Assembly (NCBI GenBank): GCA_030603385.1
Contig: JAUVXW010000015.1
Location: 16,704 to 80,703, forward strand
DNA: 64,000 bases
Source: Promethearchaeota archaeon
GTDB taxonomy: Archaea > Asgardarchaeota > Lokiarchaeia > Sigyniarchaeales > SOKP01
Direction of reading: 5' to 3'
Shown: positions 1-6,202 of the stretch, in pieces
Layout of the letters: every line of letters starts with the position of its first letter
Position numbering within the stretch: position 1 is the first letter of the stretch
Notes under the pieces: generated by a model
Databases searched by the model: none
Told to the model about the DNA's origin: nothing
What the model saw: only the letters and a program-made list of their open reading frames with translations
Position numbers and translations under genes: made by a program

Positions 1-2982
1 AATTGAAAACTTAAATGTTGCAGGATTAATATTGTCATAAAGTTTATATTCTATAGTAAAATCTTCAGATACTTTACCGTAAGGGATTACTGACACATTA
101 GTACTCTCCTGCCAGTACACTGATTGCGGGGAATCATCATTTTGCGATTGGTTTAGTATTAACTCGTTTTCTAAAAGTAATAGTGACATGATTATATCTG
201 GAGGCAAAACATATCCAGATTTTTGAGCTGTTATTTTAAGTATATAAGAAGTTTCAATTTCTAATCCATCTGTCTCAATTTCCACTTGATGTCTTCCAAT
301 ATAATCATCTTCTGTAGGCATAATATTGGATTGAACGAGTGTTGTTCCTTCAAATATTTGACATGACATTGAGTCTGCATAATCTGGTCCTATTAAATCT
401 TCAAGCCCAGAAGGTACTTCAGTAATATTCAATAGAGCTCTTAATTTTATTTTCGAACCCCAATTAACAATAATATTACTTGTTGGATTTAATGATACTA
501 TTTTTGTTTCTAATTTTTCTAGCTCTGCTGGAGCAAAATGAATCTTTATAGTATAAGCAGCTTTAGCTTCTACTGTAAAATTTGTCTCCCCTACCCTTCC
601 AGTCATAAGTTCAGATATTTCAAAGTCCCAGTTTTGTCCGTAAAAACTGATACTTAAAGAATAATTTGAATTTATAACAGAAGAATTTACCCATCTAAGC
701 GTTACATTTCCATTTAAATCCGTGGTTAAATTTACTATATTTTCACCTGAGTTAAGATTATCTAATGTTAATTTTGCTCCATCAATAGGTGTAAAAGGAG
801 ATTCATAAGTTAAAACTGTAAAGTTGACTGTTGTTAGGAGCACAGTCACATCGAGATCGCTATTTGGTGTAAGTATGTCTCCTGATGCTACTGCAATTTC
901 TTTCGGATTGTAATTAGAATCATGATACCACACCGTATAATTATATTCATAAGGAATCATATTTAACCATCGAAATGTTGCATGTCCTGTATTATCAATC
1001 GTACAATTTTGAATTGGATCTGAACTATTACCGGCTATTACCCATCCAGAATCAAGGGGAATTCCATCAATATCTACCACATTAAAGATATTTCTACTTA
1101 TGTTGCAAATTAAATTAATAGTTTGAAATGTTCCTTCTATTAGAATTGCTTCAGATGTTCTATTAATAATTATAGTATGATAAGGGAGAATATTTGATGT
1201 CATGGCTACAGTGAAATTAAACTTATCGCCAAGAGATATTAAATCTTCAAATAGAACACTCCCATTAACCTCTGCGATATCGTTCCTAATTAAATTATCA
1301 TTTTCATACATAGAAATATTTACATTGGGTATTGGATTCCCATATAAATCGATAGCGTTAACTTGAAGATCGGTAGACGGAGTATCTTCCGCACCAACAG
1401 AGTAAAAACTATTGGGATCTTCTTGGTTATTGTATTCAGTGGTAATCCAATCTGCTGAACGAACCATGTTGGAGAGTCGAAATTCGTCGATAGCACCATC
1501 AAAATATAATGATGAATTCCAAGCAATATCCAACGCTGAAGCACTGACGCCTGTTGGATCAGTTATTACTACATGATACCATGTTCCTGCAGTTACTGAA
1601 GATCCAGTTGCTCCATTAACATAAATTATTGTTGGGCCTGGAAAACTAAGGGTTTTTATTTCACTACTATCAGAATCAATTGATATTTGAGCGGTGCCAT
1701 CTAAATCAATTACGGGTGTATCTGTTGGAATACTATAATAAACAATAATCCGAATATGGTCAACTCTTAAGGCAGCGGAGAAAGAACCTGTTTTTTCTAG
1801 CCAAATTCTGAAATTGGAGTTATCAAAATCAGAAGGTGACCACGACCTACCCCATGTATCCCACGAAGCACCAGCTGTTCTATAATAATCAGTAGTACTA
1901 GTCCAGCTTTGCGGGGATTTATAGGAAGTATAAGTAATTCCCCCATCCCAAGAAAGTCTAACCCTACATCCCACTGAATAGAACTGGACCGAAGTACTTC
2001 CTTCAATGGAAACTCGAATACCATCAATAATAGCCCCAGCCGGTATACTAAAGCCAAAATTGTACCAATCTTGATCCTCATAATTAGTCAGTTCTGATGC
2101 TTTATTAAAATCATTGCTGGTGTAAGCACCAGTTGGGTCAGTCCAATCATAATAGTCATCTCCAGTAGCACTTGGGCTCTGATAACCTGTATCATAAGAA
2201 TCATACCCTGCGAGAGTAGTAGGATTCATCCAAAATTCTATAGTGTTTATTAATTCTGGGCCAACATTACCGATACTGACATAATCAGGATCGGCGTTTC
2301 CATCAAAATCTAAGCAACCGTCAATCTGTCCTGGTTCCTGATCAATGGAGCCCATTACAACAGCAGTTCCGTGATTACCGTTAATAGTTGAATCTTTAAT
2401 GTCACCTGGATTTCCAGGACCAGGATCTTCCTTTAAATGCCATACTCCTTTATAATTGGAATCCCAAACACCCGTTGGGTTTTCGTGGGATCCAATAAAA
2501 TCGGGATCTCCATAAAACAGGAATATAGTAGTATCGCTAGAAGTAGACAGCAAAGGAATACGAACCCAGGCTATCAATTCAGCTTCATTAGCACTATAAA
2601 ATGGGTCATATAGTTCTATTTCGTGATCTAACCAAGCAGTACTGTTAGCAAAAGCAATATCATCGCCATCAAACTGAGCCTTATCATCTAAGTCTGAGTC
2701 AATAATCGAGATTAACACAGGAAAATTAGCATGAGTTCCATTGACTTTATTATGATCAATTGTTATAACCTTATAATAACTAAAATCATCAGCATTCGGA
2801 AGACTGCTTGAAACAGAAAGAAATGATTCGTCCATGATGTCTTGTTCAATATCATCCTGAGTAGTATTATTCATAAATAAAGGTGTGCTAATAATTGTCG
2901 GTATTATTAATGTGATGATAAGAATTACAAGAAATCTTAATTTATTTTTTGATTTTCTCTTAATTTTTTTATTAATATTCAT
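1..2982 (-). CDS. Large secreted/surface protein with DUF2341 and LamG-like (ConA lectin) domains; partial, runs off the left edge
   Basis: Not in the ORF track; read by hand from ATG at 2982 (MNINKKIKRKSKNKLRFLVILIITLIIP, a basic plus hydrophobic signal). DUF2341-type text ITIDHNKV..NFPVLISI..DGDDIAF..LDHEIE..AWVRIP; LamG motifs GVWHL, TWYHVV, FDGAIDEFRLS; RSADWITTEYNNQ. Confidence 0.85.
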   Translation of the reverse strand, partial: MNINKKIKRKSKNKLRFLVILIITLIIPTIISTPLFMNNTTQDDIEQDIMDESFLSVSSSLPNADDFSYYKVITIDHNKVNGTHANFPVLISIIDSDLDDKAQFDGDDIAFANSTAWLDHEIELYDPFYSANEAELIAWVRIPLLSTSSDTTIFLFYGDPDFIGSHENPTGVWDSNYKGVWHLKEDPGPGNPGDIKDSTINGNHGTAVVMGSIDQEPGQIDGCLDFDGNADPDYVSIGNVGPELINTIEFWMNPTTLAGYDSYDTGYQSPSATGDDYYDWTDPTGAYTSNDFNKASELTNYEDQDWYNFGFSIPAGAIIDGIRVSIEGSTSVQFYSVGCRVRLSWDGGITYTSYKSPQSWTSTTDYYRTAGASWDTWGRSWSPSDFDNSNFRIWLEKTGSFSAALRVDHIRIIVYYSIPTDTPVIDLDGTAQISIDSDSSEIKTLSFPGPTIIYVNGATGSSVTAGTWYHVVITDPTGVSASALDIAWNSSLYFDGAIDEFRLSNMVRSADWITTEYNNQEDPNSFYSVGAEDTPSTDLQVNAIDLYGNPIPNVNISMYENDNLIRNDIAEVNGSVLFEDLISLGDKFNFTVAMTSNILPYHTIIINRTSEAILIEGTFQTINLICNISRNIFNVVDIDGIPLDSGWVIAGNSSDPIQNCTIDNTGHATFRWLNMIPYEYNYTVWYHDSNYNPKEIAVASGDILTPNSDLDVTVLLTTVNFTVLTYESPFTPIDGAKLTLDNLNSGENIVNLTTDLNGNVTLRWVNSSVINSNYSLSISFYGQNWDFEISELMTGRVGETNFTVEAKAAYTIKIHFAPAELEKLETKIVSLNPTSNIIVNWGSKIKLRALLNITEVPSGLEDLIGPDYADSMSCQIFEGTTLVQSNIMPTEDDYIGRHQVEIETDGLEIETSYILKITAQKSGYVLPPDIIMSLLLLENELILNQSQNDDSPQSVYWQESTNVSVIPYGKVSEDFTIEYKLYDNINPATFKFSI

Positions 2983-3192
2983 TTTACAGCATCCCTTTTA
3001 ATAAAAAAGTTAAAATGATATTCTTTGTAATAAAGTATAGAGTATGAGGTATATAATGTTATAGGTATCACATATCGGATAATGCAATTATATATTTTAT
3101 TTCTTTTTTTTAAAAATCACAGAATTTATAAATAAAATCTTTACTTATTGAGTTAACAAAGATACTGCTTTTATTTAATTAGGTGACATAAA

Positions 3193-5250
3193 ATTTTAAG
3201 ACAAGTATTAATCTATAAAGACTCCAATCTCATTTACAAAAGGACATACGGTATAACTATAGACTTTGAAGTTTTTAAAAATCTAATAAGTGGTATGTTT
3301 TCAAAAGTGGTTGAACAAATTTATCATATAGATTATGAAAATTATAGAATTTCTTTTGTTATAGAGAAAGATTTTAGAATTCTATTTTTATTTGTTCATG
3401 ACAAAAAAGATGATTTTATCCTTATAAAAAAAGAATTAACTAACTGTAAAGAAAAATTTTTGAAATCGTTTAAAAACATTTTAGACCAAAAAATTGACCC
3501 AAGCAGTTTAAACAAATTTAGCGTAATGGTTGATTCAATTCAAAATAAATTACCAGCGATACTATCTCTTGTAGGTTATGATGGAGTTGGTAAAACTACT
3601 ATTACAAATCTAATTAGATCAAAAGAAATCCCCATAAAACCAGCTCTACAAATCACTGGAAATATTGCAACATTAAAAATTGGAAGCTTAAATTTCATAT
3701 TAAGGGATTTTACTGGGGAACAAGATGTTGGTTTCTTATGGAACAATTTCATAAGAGGGAGTGATCTTATCCTACTTGTTACAAATTCTACTCTGGATAA
3801 TGTAGAAAACAGCAGGTTTTTCGTAAAAAAGATAGAAGAAGAAATACCAAATGCCCTTGTTATTGTATTAGGAAATAAACAAGATCTTGAAGATACTTTA
3901 AAACCACAAGAAATTGAGGATATATTAGAATTAAAAACACATGGATTAATCGCAATAGATACAGTAAATCGAGATAAGCTAATCGAAATTATAATGAATA
4001 CCATGCAAACCCAAGATATCACCACCCCATTGTTAAGTATGTCTAATGAAAGAGAAATTCTAATAAAGGAATTGGACAATGCAATACTTCAGACCGACTT
4101 TGAAAAGGCGGAAATCCTTTATAAAAAAATTATAAGGATTTGTCTAGATCTTGGAGATAATCCTCTAAATATGGAATTTTATAAGAGTTATCAAGGAATT
4201 CAGGATAAGTTAAAAGCTATTGGACCTAAACAAGAATTAGCAGAACCTCTAACAACAACACAAGATCACCAACTAAAGAGCATTAGTTCATTGGAAGGTC
4301 GTTTAAAAACATTATTGATTAATTATATTAAAAGTCTTGAAGGAATTTTAACAGTAATCATTAGTGATAGAGAGGGTTTTGTTATAACTTCGGAAAGTAG
4401 ACAGGATGCCGGGGATGAATCTCTATTGGGAGCAATAGCAGTTATGATGGATAGCTATATAGAACGAATTAAAAGAGAATTTGGGAACGAAACTACTTTT
4501 TTTAATATAACTACAATCAAAGAAAAGAAATTCACCTACGGTTCAATGGGAACGAGATCAATTTTATTAACAGTTTCCGATTTATCAACCAACGACACAG
4601 AATTACGTGTTTATACTGAATACGTAGCGGAAAAGGTAGAATCATTGTTAAAAGGAAATGATAATGTTATACTTGAGATTCCCGAAATTATTAGATTATT
4701 ATCTAAAACTAAAAGTGGTATCTTACCAACGGGGGATTATCCATTTAAACTAATTTTAACTGGTGATTTTGCAGTGGGAAAAACCTCTTTAATTTCAAGA
4801 TTTGTGCAGAATCTCTTTAAAGAAGATTATCATTCCACAGTAGGAGTAGATATTTCTAAGAAAATCGTAAAACTCGACGAAAATACAAAAGTTCAATTCA
4901 TTATATGGGACATCGGTGGTCAAATGCCTAAAATGGCACCCTATAGAAAAAAGTTTTATATGGGGGCAAATTGTGCTTTCATTGTATTAGACAGAACCAG
5001 AGCAGATAGTCTTAAAAATGTCGATAAGTGGTATAATGAAATCAAAAATTATGTCAAAAAAGAAATCAATGTCATTTTAGTTGGAAACAAGTCAGATTTA
5101 TTAGATAAAATATTAGTTAGTGAAGAAGACATAAGAGATGTGGCAAATAAGTATAGATTTAACTATATAATTACTTCTGCTAAAACTGGTGAGAGTGTTA
5201 ATGAGACGTTTTTATATATTGCTTATAAATTTTTAGCATCTTTGTTTTAA
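3193..5250 (+). CDS. Multidomain protein: longin-like, Arf-like GTPase, helical linker, roadblock/LC7, Rab-like GTPase
   Basis: Two P-loops (GYDGVGKT, GDFAVGKT); G3 DFTGE and WDIGGQ; G4 NKQD and NKSD; G5 TSAK; roadblock text VIISDREGFVI. The track starts at 3295, but the frame is open to 3187 with ATT at 3193 after GGTGA. Confidence 0.85.
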   Translation: MLRQVLIYKDSNLIYKRTYGITIDFEVFKNLISGMFSKVVEQIYHIDYENYRISFVIEKDFRILFLFVHDKKDDFILIKKELTNCKEKFLKSFKNILDQKIDPSSLNKFSVMVDSIQNKLPAILSLVGYDGVGKTTITNLIRSKEIPIKPALQITGNIATLKIGSLNFILRDFTGEQDVGFLWNNFIRGSDLILLVTNSTLDNVENSRFFVKKIEEEIPNALVIVLGNKQDLEDTLKPQEIEDILELKTHGLIAIDTVNRDKLIEIIMNTMQTQDITTPLLSMSNEREILIKELDNAILQTDFEKAEILYKKIIRICLDLGDNPLNMEFYKSYQGIQDKLKAIGPKQELAEPLTTTQDHQLKSISSLEGRLKTLLINYIKSLEGILTVIISDREGFVITSESRQDAGDESLLGAIAVMMDSYIERIKREFGNETTFFNITTIKEKKFTYGSMGTRSILLTVSDLSTNDTELRVYTEYVAEKVESLLKGNDNVILEIPEIIRLLSKTKSGILPTGDYPFKLILTGDFAVGKTSLISRFVQNLFKEDYHSTVGVDISKKIVKLDENTKVQFIIWDIGGQMPKMAPYRKKFYMGANCAFIVLDRTRADSLKNVDKWYNEIKNYVKKEINVILVGNKSDLLDKILVSEEDIRDVANKYRFNYIITSAKTGESVNETFLYIAYKFLASLF

Positions 5251-5413: not shown

Positions 5414-6202
5414 TTATTTCTCAGACTTAAGTCTGCTAATTATTCTATCTTTTCTATCCAAATCTTCTTTTAAAAGGATAATTTTATTTTTAAGCTCACG
5501 TATCTCAATGTCAAATTTTATTTTCTCTCTCTTAGGTTCCCTGTATTTAGTCAATTGATCTCTCAAATCATCAACTCGTTTTTTAGATTCATTTAGCTCC
5601 TTTTGTAATTCTTTATTTAACTCTTTTTTTATTTTTTCTTTAAAAAATTTCCCTTCCAATATTGAATTTTGAATTTTTAGTCCTTTATTTAATTCTCCCA
5701 CGATTAGATTTAAATTATTTATATGCTTCTCTTTTTCTCCAATTTCATTTTTTATATTTCCTATTAAAATTTCCTGAATATATAGTTTTTTTCGCAATTC
5801 TTTAATTAAAGTCTCCAGATTTAACAGATCTTGGGTATATTTTTCTTCCTTCCTTATTTTTTCTATAGACATCGCCGATGACTTGCTTGATTTTTTGAAT
5901 TCTTCTAGTTCCCTTTGAGCTATGGTTTTTTCTTGTCTCAAAAATCCCATACGATTTTTTAAATCTCTTATTTCCCTCTCTTTCTCTTTTAATTCAAAGT
6001 TTAATTTAGAATCAATTATATTTTGATAGTTTTCTTGAGAGGGTGTTTTTGAAATGAGTTCATGAAGTTCCATAAGCTCATCCTCATTATCGTGGATTTT
6101 TTCAAGATACATATTTATTTCTTGATTTTTTTTATCTAAATCCAAATTTAACTTACGTATCTGACTTTTCAACAGATACACATCAGTTTCATCCTCATTC
6201 AT
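5414..6202 (-). CDS. Coiled-coil protein, unknown function
   Basis: 262 aa, E/K/L-rich heptad pattern throughout. Confidence 0.7.
   Translation of the reverse strand: MNEDETDVYLLKSQIRKLNLDLDKKNQEINMYLEKIHDNEDELMELHELISKTPSQENYQNIIDSKLNFELKEKEREIRDLKNRMGFLRQEKTIAQRELEEFKKSSKSSAMSIEKIRKEEKYTQDLLNLETLIKELRKKLYIQEILIGNIKNEIGEKEKHINNLNLIVGELNKGLKIQNSILEGKFFKEKIKKELNKELQKELNESKKRVDDLRDQLTKYREPKREKIKFDIEIRELKNKIILLKEDLDRKDRIISRLKSEK

What the first reader, a model, noticed from the sequence alone, without database searches (positions are those of the whole stretch)
3193..5250. Single polypeptide with two different small GTPases plus longin and roadblock domains
Seen: longin-like N-terminus (~3193-3545), Arf-like GTPase with an atypical G3 (DFTGE, E in place of the catalytic Q), helical linker, roadblock (~4300-4650) and a Rab-like GTPase with canonical motifs. 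There is no C-terminal prenylation Cys. Established: longin- and roadblock-GTPase fusions occur in Asgard archaea, and eukaryotic Rag/Ragulator and longin GEFs use these modules in trans. Inference: a hard-wired GTPase cascade or Rag-like pseudo-heterodimer in one chain.
Basis: partly seen in the sequence, partly recalled or inferred. Interest (0 to 1): 0.7.

Follow-up and report, generated by a model that had tools for sequence, protein, structure and literature searches.

The report
Asgard four-domain double small GTPase
One unbroken gene of a Loki-type Asgard archaeon encodes a longin domain, an Arf-like GTPase, a roadblock domain and a Rab-like GTPase in a single chain; it arose from one ancient fusion of two genes that also exist separately, and it shows which of the many Asgard GTPases probably work together, although its function is untested.

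Summary
Window 3193-5250 (+) is one open frame of 685 codons with five parts: a longin fold, an Arf-like G domain, a helical stalk with a ~20-residue disordered linker, a roadblock fold, and a Rab-like G domain.

- **G domains.** The Arf-like domain has E176 at the catalytic Gln position. The Rab-like domain is fully canonical. There is no C-terminal Cys.
- **Start codon.** The start is a non-canonical ATT behind an AGGTGA ribosome-binding site. This feature is kept in most relatives, which explains why gene callers truncate the longin domain.
- **Family.** There are at least 106 full-length members, all from Loki-type (Promethearchaeota) MAGs. Distribution is patchy: 4 of 41 genomes of one GTDB family, and none found in 26 other Asgard families sampled.
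- **Origin.** Trees of both halves indicate a single fusion of a longin-GTPase-helical gene with a roadblock-GTPase gene. Both types persist as separate genes.
- **First G domain across the family.** It keeps the nucleotide-binding motifs but has Gln at the catalytic position in only 22 of 106 members.

Longin-GTPase and roadblock-GTPase fusions are published; I found no description of this four-domain form. The scan had already noted the same architecture and the ATT start on other genomes. I rate it a new variant of a known kind, of moderate interest.

The parts
3181..3186 (+). Shine-Dalgarno-like AGGTGA; its TGA (3184-3186) is the in-frame stop that closes the frame upstream
   Evidence: Sequence read. 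GGTG lies 5-8 nt before codon 1 in nearly all relatives.
3193..3195 (+). Probable ATT start codon
   Evidence: There is no ATG/GTG/TTG between the stop at 3184-3186 and 3295. Residue 1 (M or L) of the homologues P0009, P0010, P0022, P0080 and P0101 aligns here. ATT/ATA/ATC occupies this position in 21 of 24 loci.
3193..5250 (+). Whole gene: 685 codons plus stop (the LGRG protein, P0001)
   Evidence: Translation without a stop. At least 230 homologues, about 106 of them full length.
3193..3546 (+). Longin domain (residues 1-118), topology beta-beta-alpha-beta-beta-beta-alpha-alpha
   Evidence: AF2 models (domain alone pLDDT 85.5, pTM 0.81). Foldseek: VAMP7 longin, TM 0.74, E 6e-5. VIA-align: Z 14.3 over 112 residues at 2.5 A to the VAMP7 longin, Sec22 Z 13.2, SRX Z 11.6.
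3553..4008 (+). Arf-like GTPase domain G1 (residues 121-272): P-loop 128-135, G3 DFTG-E176 (codon 3718-3720), NKQD 228-231
   Evidence: Pfam Arf 3e-16, 59.8 bits, against Ras 1.2e-5. Best PDB sequence hits are Arf3p 7.5e-14, then Arf1 and Arf6. Motif census.
4009..4221 (+). Helical stalk (residues 273-343), part of the ancestral longin-GTPase-X module
   Evidence: Helices 274-299, 303-320 and 328-342 with pLDDT 69-88. The stalk is also conserved in LGX paralogues that carry other tails.
4222..4281 (+). Variable, predicted disordered linker (residues 344-363): the fusion joint
   Evidence: pLDDT 30-41. It is the least conserved segment, with majority-residue frequency 0.32.
4282..4662 (+). Roadblock/LC7 domain (residues 364-490), topology alpha-beta-beta-alpha-beta-beta-beta-alpha
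   Evidence: Topology. Pfam Robl_LC7 hits in 20 of 20 family members (best 1.6e-5) and MAPKK1_Int in 17 of 20 (best 1.9e-7). hhalign against six bona fide roadblock proteins of the same genome: probability 87%, E 3.9e-6, 103 columns.
4663..4731 (+). Roadblock-to-G2 connector (residues 491-513), the most conserved segment of the protein
   Evidence: Majority-residue frequency 0.82. I496, P497 and G509 are invariant.
4732..5247 (+). Rab-like GTPase domain G2 (residues 514-685) with canonical G1-G5 motifs and no C-terminal Cys
   Evidence: Pfam Ras 1.2e-40. PDB Rab1a 2.4e-31 and Thorarchaeota Rab 5.4e-31. Foldseek Rab1/Rab8, TMt 0.81-0.85. T549, D573, Q577, K633 and D635 are each kept in 106 of 106 members and N632 in 105 of 106.

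Best explanation
**What it is (shown).** The gene is real and conserved. It encodes a four-domain 'LGRG' protein: longin, Arf-like GTPase (G1), helical stalk, flexible linker, roadblock, Rab-like GTPase (G2). It arose once, in one family of Loki-type Asgard archaea. The fusion joined a longin-GTPase-helical (LGX) gene to a roadblock-GTPase (RG) gene. Both types still exist as separate genes in the same genomes.

**How it most likely works (inferred).** It is a two-switch signalling protein.
- G2 is a normal, hydrolysis-competent Rab-like switch.
- G1 still binds guanine nucleotide but lacks the usual catalytic Gln. It is therefore either a slow, long-lived switch or one that depends on a partner.
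- The longin and roadblock domains are built-in regulatory or dimerisation platforms. Their free counterparts play this role in SRX-SRbeta, MglB-MglA, Rag-Ragulator and longin GEFs.
- The covalent tether fixes 1:1 stoichiometry and co-localisation, so the state of one G domain can be read together with, or passed to, the other.
- With no lipid anchor and no amphipathic N-terminus, any membrane recruitment would have to come from a partner.
For: - **Single continuous ORF** under purifying selection in every domain.
- **Domain folds and families**.
- **Motif census of 106 members**:
  - G1 keeps the P-loop (G128 and G133 105/106, K134 104/106), N228 (106/106), K229 (100), D231 (94), the G5 Ala (99) and the G3 Asp (95).
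  - The catalytic position of G1 is Asp 50, Glu 22, Gln 22, Pro 7.
  - G2 motifs are kept in at least 93 of 106 members (the two weakest are flanking positions, G631 93 and K664 94), and Q577 is 106/106.
- **Separate LG and RG genes in the same genome**.
- **Single fusion**:
  - The RG halves of LGRG proteins form one clade (SH-aLRT 100) nested among standalone RG genes.
  - The LG halves form one clade (SH-aLRT 100) nested among LGX genes that carry other tails.
- **The joint** is a poorly conserved, predicted disordered 20-residue linker.
- **Published structural work** shows that Asgard roadblock and longin domains dimerise, and that LG, RG and LGR architectures exist (PMC10933270).
Against: - There are no biochemical or expression data.
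- Coupling between the two G domains is pure inference.
- The relative position of the halves is not confidently modelled: pTM 0.53 and a disordered linker.
- The switch-I Thr of G1 cannot be placed with certainty. A Ser/Thr is conserved in 94 of 106 members, but two residues away from the position that phmmer aligns to the switch-I Thr of Arf3p.
- In some members G3 or G4 of G1 is degenerate.
- An RG-only gene that descends from a fused paralogue is intact in this genome, so the halves may act independently.
- The gene has no operon partner that hints at a pathway.
Confidence: 0.6

Rival explanations
1. Intramolecular Rag-like pseudo-heterodimer. The longin and roadblock domains, which have related folds, pair with each other inside one chain. 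They would form a platform that carries the two G domains side by side, as the roadblock C-terminal domains do in RagA/RagC or Gtr1/Gtr2. One G domain would then lock the other.
For: - Both platform folds are present.
- The longin model also aligns to roadblock proteins: MglB Z 9.8, LAMTOR Z 9.1, and the C-terminal domain of a Lokiarchaeota Rag-like GTPase Z 9.4.
- The 20-residue flexible linker plus helical stalk would allow the chain to fold back.
- The asymmetry, one canonical and one atypical G domain, recalls Rag pairs.
Against: - The domain order (platform before G domain) is the reverse of Rag.
- G1 is Arf-like and G2 is Rab-like, not Rag.
- The full-length model gives no confident inter-half arrangement (pTM 0.53).
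- Standalone RG and LG proteins exist, and an RG-only descendant persists. These would more naturally form homodimers.
Confidence: 0.2
2. Two autonomous regulator-GTPase cassettes that are merely tethered. Each half works as its standalone relatives do. The fusion only brings them to the same place or sets equal dosage, without allosteric cross-talk.
For: - Both halves exist as independent genes in all 40 other sampled genomes of the family.
- The fusion joint is disordered and poorly conserved.
- The fusion is patchy: 4 of 41 genomes.
- It was undone at least once by loss of the LG half, leaving an intact RG gene.
Against: - The fusion has been kept through diversification into several subfamilies, down to about 45% identity.
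- All domains are under purifying selection.
- The LG halves of fused proteins sit on a long separate branch (0.36 substitutions per site). This suggests adaptation after the fusion.
Confidence: 0.25
3. G1 is a pseudo-GTPase. It would be a structural or scaffold domain that no longer cycles, and the protein would in effect be a single Rab-like switch with a large N-terminal adaptor.
For: - The catalytic Gln is missing in 84 of 106 members.
- No invariant switch-I Thr can be assigned.
- Some members have a degenerate G3 (DFTEQ, DFADD) or G4 (NKFG, NRFD, NKWE).
- The LG half evolves faster than the RG half: majority-residue frequency 0.55-0.67 against 0.76-0.82.
Against: - The P-loop Gly, Lys and Thr, the NKxD Asn, Lys and Asp, the G5 Ala and the G3 Asp are kept in 89-100% of members. 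This is not expected if nucleotide binding were lost.
- dN/dS of G1 is 0.28.
- Several active small GTPases lack the Gln, for example Rap and Sar1 (my own knowledge).
Confidence: 0.15
4. Artefact: two adjacent genes joined by a sequencing or assembly error, or a decaying gene that lost its start codon.
For: There is no canonical start codon at the 5' end. Automatic callers report a 651-residue product for the closest relatives.
Against: - The same continuous frame occurs in many independent assemblies and in more than 100 homologues.
- The 34 codons before the first ATG encode the first two longin strands. Close relatives differ there only by an in-frame 6-nt indel and three substitutions.
- The ATT start behind GGTG is conserved.
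- dN/dS is well below 1.
Confidence: 0.02

Closest known systems
Asgard longin-GTPase (LG, LGX), roadblock-GTPase (RG) and LGR proteins of Ca. Prometheoarchaeum MK-D1 and Lokiarchaeum (Tran et al. 2024, PMC10933270; Klinger et al. 2016 as cited in PMC4917890)
   Same: The building blocks are the same: a longin domain fused N-terminally to an Arf/Rag-like G domain, and a roadblock domain fused N-terminally to a Rab/Ras-like G domain. There are no prenylation Cys residues. The window's two halves are homologous to such standalone genes in its own genome.
   Different: Both cassettes are in one chain, giving two different small GTPases per polypeptide. The MK-D1 architectures named in the text and supplement I could read (G, GR, RG, LG, LGR, LGX, XGR, GXLX and others) include none with two G domains. 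I could not see Fig. 1f itself.
Rag GTPase heterodimers (RagA/B-RagC/D, Gtr1-Gtr2) on Ragulator/EGO
   Same: Two non-identical small GTPase domains are held in a fixed 1:1 unit by roadblock-type domains. The two G domains are functionally asymmetric.
   Different: Rag is two chains, each with the G domain N-terminal to its roadblock domain, and both G domains are Rag family. Here there is one chain, the platform domain comes before each G domain, one platform is a longin, and the G domains are Arf-like and Rab-like.
SRalpha SRX domain bound to SRbeta (signal recognition particle receptor)
   Same: A longin-fold domain is paired with an Arf-like GTPase. SRX is among the structural matches of the N-terminal domain: Z 11.6 to 5ck3_A and 10.8 to 1nrj_A. 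PF09439 (SRPRB) is among the precomputed Pfam hits of many family members.
   Different: SRX and SRbeta are separate chains and belong to the protein-targeting machinery. The best structural matches here are SNARE-type longins (VAMP7, Sec22), not SRX. Sequence support for SRX is negligible: 2 of 16 members at E 0.24.
MglA-MglB of Myxococcus and Thermus
   Same: A roadblock domain acts directly on a Ras-like GTPase. MglB is among the structural neighbours.
   Different: MglB is a separate dimeric GAP, whereas here the roadblock is covalently upstream of the G domain. MglA lacks the Rab-like signatures of G2.
Miro (mitochondrial Rho GTPase) and EngA/Der: other proteins with two GTPase domains in one chain (my own knowledge; EngA in PMC3466195)
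   Same: Two G domains with different properties sit in a single polypeptide.
   Different: They are unrelated in domain type and partners: Miro has EF hands between a Rho-like and a second G domain, and EngA has two TRAFAC Era-like domains plus a KH domain. Neither has longin or roadblock domains. Homotypic tandem Ras arrays also exist in metagenomic data, but they lack longin and roadblock domains.

Membership tests
Longin domain fold | Five-stranded sheet with beta-beta-alpha-beta-beta-beta-alpha-alpha order | tested here: met
   DSSP on the AF2 models gives E2-9, E12-18, H25-35, E44-47, E51-58, E63-70, H75-96, H103-117.
Longin domain fold | Structural similarity to solved longin domains across the whole domain | tested here: met
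   VAMP7 Z 14.3 (112 residues, 2.5 A), Sec22 Z 13.2, synbindin Z 12.4, AP sigma/mu N-terminal domains Z 11-12. Foldseek TM 0.74.
GAP-type longins (FLCN / SMCR8 / NPRL2 class) | GP motif in the beta1-beta2 region together with an arginine finger (as described in PMC12290439) | tested here: not met
   The beta1-beta2 loop reads K-D-S-N, and the family consensus has no Gly-Pro there. No invariant Arg exists in the longin domain; the invariant residues are Y15, F67 and D73.
Roadblock/LC7 (Pfam PF03259) | Match to the family profile | tested here: inconclusive
   The window's own domain scores 15.5 bits (E 0.014), below the 23-bit cut-off. However, all 20 aligned family members hit Robl_LC7 (best 1.6e-5) and 17 hit MAPKK1_Int (best 1.9e-7). 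Profile-profile comparison with six roadblock proteins of this genome gives probability 87%, E 3.9e-6.
Roadblock/LC7 (Pfam PF03259) | alpha-beta-beta-alpha-beta-beta-beta(-alpha) topology | tested here: met
   H364-381, E385-392, E397-402, H408-430, E435-442, E445-452, E456-463, H468-486.
Arf family (Pfam PF00025) | Profile match above the curated cut-off and better than to other Ras-superfamily profiles | tested here: met
   For G1 alone: Arf 59.8 bits (cut-off 22.3, E 3e-16) against Ras 25.4 bits. The top PDB sequence hits are all Arf or Arl.
Arf family (Pfam PF00025) | Catalytic Gln in G3 (DxxGQ) | tested here: not met
   E176 aligns with the Gln of Arf3p and Arf1. Across the family this position is Asp 50, Glu 22, Gln 22, Pro 7 of 106.
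Arf family (Pfam PF00025) | N-terminal amphipathic helix or myristoylated Gly2 for membrane binding | tested here: not met
   A 118-residue longin domain precedes the G domain.
Rab family | Closest similarity to Rab among Ras-superfamily members, with canonical G1-G5 motifs | tested here: met
   PDB: Rab1a 2.4e-31, Thorarchaeota Rab 5.4e-31, then Rab1b, Rab5 and Rab11. Foldseek top 50 are all Rab, Ypt or Sec4. The motifs are conserved.
Rab family | C-terminal Cys motif for geranylgeranylation | tested here: not met
   The protein ends ...YKFLASLF, and no Cys occurs at the C-termini of the 36 aligned members.
Rab family | RabF1-F5 family motifs | tested here: inconclusive
   Judged by eye only. 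VGVDI resembles RabF1 (IGVDF) and IIWDIGGQ resembles RabF2. The RabF3-F5 regions (YRKKFYMGA, IVLDRT) differ from the consensus as I recall it. No scoring tool was available.
Rag/Gtr family (Pfam PF04670) | Rag-type G domain followed by a C-terminal roadblock dimerisation domain | tested here: not met
   Gtr1_RagA matches only G2, at 30 bits against 139 bits for Ras. The roadblock precedes the G domain.

The most novel reading that the evidence does not exclude
The protein is a single-chain ancestor-like version of eukaryotic GTPase cross-talk. The nucleotide state of the atypical Arf-like domain, read through the longin and roadblock platform, would control loading or hydrolysis of the Rab-like domain, or the reverse. 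This would be an Arf-to-Rab or Rag-style coupled switch operating in a prokaryote. The fusion would then identify which of the roughly 60 GTPases of these archaea form a functional pair.
Probability: 0.2. Interest if true: 0.8.

Novelty: new variant of a known kind. Interest (0 to 1): 0.5.

Why it matters
- **Pairing information.** Asgard genomes carry dozens of small GTPases plus many longin and roadblock proteins. Tran et al. (PMC10933270) note that gene order gives almost no clue as to which regulator or partner goes with which GTPase. A conserved fusion of a longin-Arf-like cassette with a roadblock-Rab-like cassette supplies that missing pairing, in the manner of a 'Rosetta stone' fusion. 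It also gives a compact, soluble, experimentally tractable object.
- **Open question it could address.** It could be used to test whether coupled GTPase switches predate eukaryotes. In eukaryotes such coupling is seen in Rag heterodimers and in Arf/Rab cascades.
- **Annotation lesson.** Because of the ATT start, automatic gene calls remove the longin domain from many family members.

Tried and rejected
- **Complex prediction** of the N half (1-343) against the C half (362-685), each with its alignment, returned 'no answer' (score 0.00). This is no evidence either way.
- **Sequence profile of the longin part against PDB** found nothing. Pfam gave only noise apart from two faint SRP-alpha_N hits. 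The fold had to be shown by structure.
- **Roadblock profile against PDB** gave only weak LAMTOR3 hits, E 0.2-0.4.
- **The protein-atlas search** gave scores of 0.81-0.83, which are leads only.
- **Foldseek with the full-length model** returned only Rab chains, as expected for a multidomain query.
- **The 286-residue ORF between the two upstream RG genes** is not a remnant of an LG half. BLASTP E was above 1, and tblastn found no LG trace.
- **Locus L092**, which looked like another double GTPase, is not one open frame.
- **Klinger et al. 2016** is not held in the library. Searches for 'two GTPase domains', 'tandem' or 'dual GTPase' with Asgard, and for LokiRag names, found nothing relevant.
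- **Neighbouring genes give no functional hint**. They are a DNA methylase, a phosphodiesterase, a GH38 mannosidase and a coiled-coil protein.
Full report
**1. The observation**

The frame that contains 3193-5250 is open from 3187 to the stop at 5248-5250, and its translation has no internal stop. The mechanical ORF list starts it at the first ATG, 3295. However, 684-686-residue homologues whose first residue (M or L) aligns exactly with the ATT at 3193 (P0009, P0010, P0022, P0080 and P0101).

The ATT lies six bases after AGGTGA (3181-3186), whose TGA closes the frame. Two 94-95% identical relatives from other assemblies have the same ATT and no in-frame canonical start. In the 34 codons before the ATG they differ from the window only by an in-frame 6-nt indel and three substitutions. 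Among 24 loci of this and the sister LGX family, codon 1 is ATT, ATA or ATC behind GGTG in 21, and ATG in only three.

An earlier follow-up of this scan reached the same conclusion on another genome (e1-4846222). I tested it here and agree.

**2. Anatomy**

*Full-length model.* An AlphaFold2 model built from 36 homologues has mean pLDDT 77.9 and pTM 0.53. It shows:
- residues 2-119: beta-beta-alpha-beta-beta-beta-alpha-alpha
- residues 122-272: a G domain
- residues 274-342: three helices
- residues 344-363: a disordered stretch (pLDDT 30-41)
- residues 364-486: alpha-beta-beta-alpha-beta-beta-beta-alpha
- residues 514-683: a second G domain

*Longin domain.* The N-terminal domain folded alone has pLDDT 85.5 and pTM 0.81. 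It matches SNARE longin domains best:
- VAMP7: Z 14.3, 112 residues, 2.5 A; Foldseek TM 0.74
- then Sec22, synbindin, the AP sigma/mu subunits and the SRX domain of SRalpha (Z 11.6)

It lacks the Gly-Pro motif and has no conserved Arg of the kind described for GAP-type longins.

*Roadblock domain.* The assignment rests on three results:
- the predicted topology
- Pfam Robl_LC7 hits in all 20 aligned members and MAPKK1_Int hits in 17; the window's own score is below the cut-off
- a profile-profile match to six bona fide roadblock proteins of the same genome: 87% probability, E 3.9e-6

*G domains.*
- G1 is Arf-like: Pfam Arf 59.8 bits against Ras 25.4, and the top PDB hits are Arf3p, Arf1 and Arf6.
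- G2 is Rab-like: Pfam Ras 139 bits, PDB Rab1a 2.4e-31 and the solved Thorarchaeota Rab 5.4e-31.
- The alignment to Arf puts E176 at the catalytic Gln.
- The protein ends without Cys.

**3. Family-wide motif census**

I aligned 106 full-length members.

- G1 keeps G128 and G133 (105 each), K134 (104), T135 (98, plus 3 Ser), the G3 Asp (95) and Gly (100), N228 (106), K229 (100), D231 (94) and the G5 Ala (99).
- The catalytic position of G1 is Asp 50, Glu 22, Gln 22 and Pro 7.
- A Ser/Thr is conserved in switch I of G1 (94 of 106), but its equivalence to the Arf Thr is uncertain.
- G2 has T549, D573, Q577, K633 and D635 in all 106 members and N632 in 105.
- By majority-residue frequency, the RG half (roadblock 0.76, connector 0.82, G2 0.76) is more conserved than the LG half (longin 0.55, G1 0.67, helices 0.53). 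The joint is the least conserved part (0.32).
- Against the 79% identical orthologue, dN/dS is 0.24 (longin), 0.28 (G1), 0.13 (roadblock) and 0.15 (connector plus G2).

G1 therefore looks like a nucleotide-binding domain with an unusual catalytic site. It does not look like a decaying one.

**4. Where it occurs and how it arose**

*Database and genome counts.*
- The protein database holds at least 230 relatives of 376-1199 residues. They are annotated only as 'GTP-binding protein' or 'ADP-ribosylation factor-like protein' and come from Asgard MAGs under various submitter labels.
- In a sample of 201 genomes of the phylum, matches at E <= 1e-80 occur in all 40 other genomes of the window's own GTDB family. 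They also occur in one of three genomes of the sister family, and in none of 25 further families.
- A full-length fused gene is present in only 4 of the 41 genomes of the window's family, counting the window's own.
- Among species representatives with record titles, the full-length hits are all 'Promethearchaeota archaeon' MAGs.
- At 50% clustering the fused family collapses to about two full-length representatives.

*What the other genomes carry.*
- a standalone roadblock-GTPase gene, 48-59% identical to the C half
- a longin-GTPase-helical gene, 41-47% identical to the N half, whose tail in the nine examined is a Pro-rich repeat region ending in a coiled coil instead of the RG module

*Trees.*
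- The RG halves of fused proteins form one clade (SH-aLRT 100) nested among standalone RG genes.
- The LG halves form one clade (SH-aLRT 100, stem 0.36) nested among the LGX genes.
- This fits a single fusion followed by duplication into subfamilies. Some relatives carry two fused paralogues on one contig.
- There is one exception. The RG-only gene 7.5 kb upstream in this genome (G000:C53:12366-13328) sits inside the fused clade. It is 71-76% identical to the RG half of the second paralogue and occupies that paralogue's syntenic position, with no trace of an LG half. The fusion was therefore undone there and the RG part survived.
- The trees are quick-search trees with LG+G4, and roots are set by distant paralogues of the same genome. 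The conclusion is 'consistent with one origin', not proof.

**5. Context**

The gene stands alone.
- Upstream, transcribed divergently, is an 1839-residue protein with one predicted membrane span near residue 1360 and a weak Laminin_G_3 match.
- Downstream, convergent, is a 262-residue Lys/Glu-rich coiled-coil protein.
- This order is kept in orthologous contigs. The wider neighbourhood is kept as well, so it says little about function.
- The genome has about 60 small-GTPase matches.

**6. Mechanism**

*Shown.* The protein has two different, conserved G domains. Each is preceded by a platform domain of the longin/roadblock superfamily. The two cassettes are joined by a helical stalk and a flexible linker.

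*Inferred.*
- G2 cycles like a Rab.
- G1 binds nucleotide but hydrolyses slowly or needs a partner.
- The platform domains mediate regulation or dimerisation, as they do in SRX-SRbeta, MglB-MglA, Rag-Ragulator and longin GEFs.
- The tether couples the two switches in space and stoichiometry.

*Not established.* Whether the halves touch (Rag-like pseudo-heterodimer), act in sequence (cascade) or are merely tethered could not be settled. The full-length model is not confident about their relative position, and the complex prediction gave no answer (reported only as an attempt). The surviving RG-only descendant argues that the halves are not strictly interdependent.

**7. Comparison with what is known, and novelty**

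- Longin-Arf-like and roadblock-Ras/Rag-like fusions were reported for Lokiarchaeum (Klinger 2016, as summarised in PMC4917890).
- LG, RG, LGR and LGX architectures were catalogued by AlphaFold for MK-D1 (PMC10933270).
- Longin N-termini on Asgard Arfs are mentioned in PMC11914678.
- Multidomain ESP shuffling is described in bioRxiv 10.1101/2020.10.19.343400.
- I found no text describing a chain with both cassettes and two different G domains. I could not see the figures or the Klinger paper.
- Homotypic tandem Ras arrays exist in metagenomic data. Miro and EngA show that two G domains per chain are not unprecedented in principle.
- The scan itself has flagged this architecture on several other genomes.

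I therefore rate it a new variant of a known kind, of moderate interest. Its main value is as a natural pairing of two Asgard GTPase modules that can be tested biochemically.

Noticed in passing
window 3181-3195; also L012, L013, L016-L028, L053-L057: A non-canonical ATT (sometimes ATA or ATC) start behind GGTG is conserved in 21 of 24 longin-GTPase loci. These include the sister LGX family that carries other tails. Gene callers therefore cut off the first two longin strands in many database entries.
   Followed up: yes
G000:C53:12366-13328 (L011:12369-13334), 7.5 kb upstream of the gene and outside the window: A roadblock-GTPase-only gene nests inside the fused LGRG clade. It is 71-76% identical to the RG half of the second LGRG paralogue and sits at that paralogue's syntenic position. 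The LG half has been lost without a trace. A second RG gene lies at C53:10139-11101.
   Followed up: yes
L020-L028 (other genomes of the same family): Longin-GTPase-helical proteins of 586-776 residues have a C-terminal half made of Pro-rich repeats (PKKPE/PKPP-type). These are followed by a conserved motif (DFM/I-x-K-x-RPK...KLKTSP[FY]G) and a terminal coiled coil. Function is unknown.
   Followed up: partly
window 1-2982 (-), continuing to L011:13413-18932: An 1839-residue protein with a single predicted membrane span near residue 1360 and a weak Laminin_G_3 match is transcribed divergently from the GTPase gene across a 210-bp spacer. The arrangement is kept in orthologous contigs (L013, L014, L016).
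   Followed up: partly
window 5414-6202 (-): A 262-residue Lys/Glu-rich predicted coiled-coil protein with no Pfam family is conserved downstream in relatives. In two close relatives (L012, L013), an 83-residue HATPase_c fragment gene lies between it and the GTPase gene. The window has only 163 bp in that position.
   Followed up: no
P0129, P0149, P0161, P0172, P0182, P0185 (representative library): These proteins carry three or four tandem Ras-family domains in one chain and have no longin or roadblock domain. Their origin and taxonomy are unknown, and they could be real arrays or gene-model artefacts.
   Followed up: partly
L099, L101, L109, L114, L116, L124, L128, L130: Chloroflexota/Anaerolineae MAGs encode Rab-like GTPases that are 36-40% identical to G2 of this protein.
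   Followed up: no
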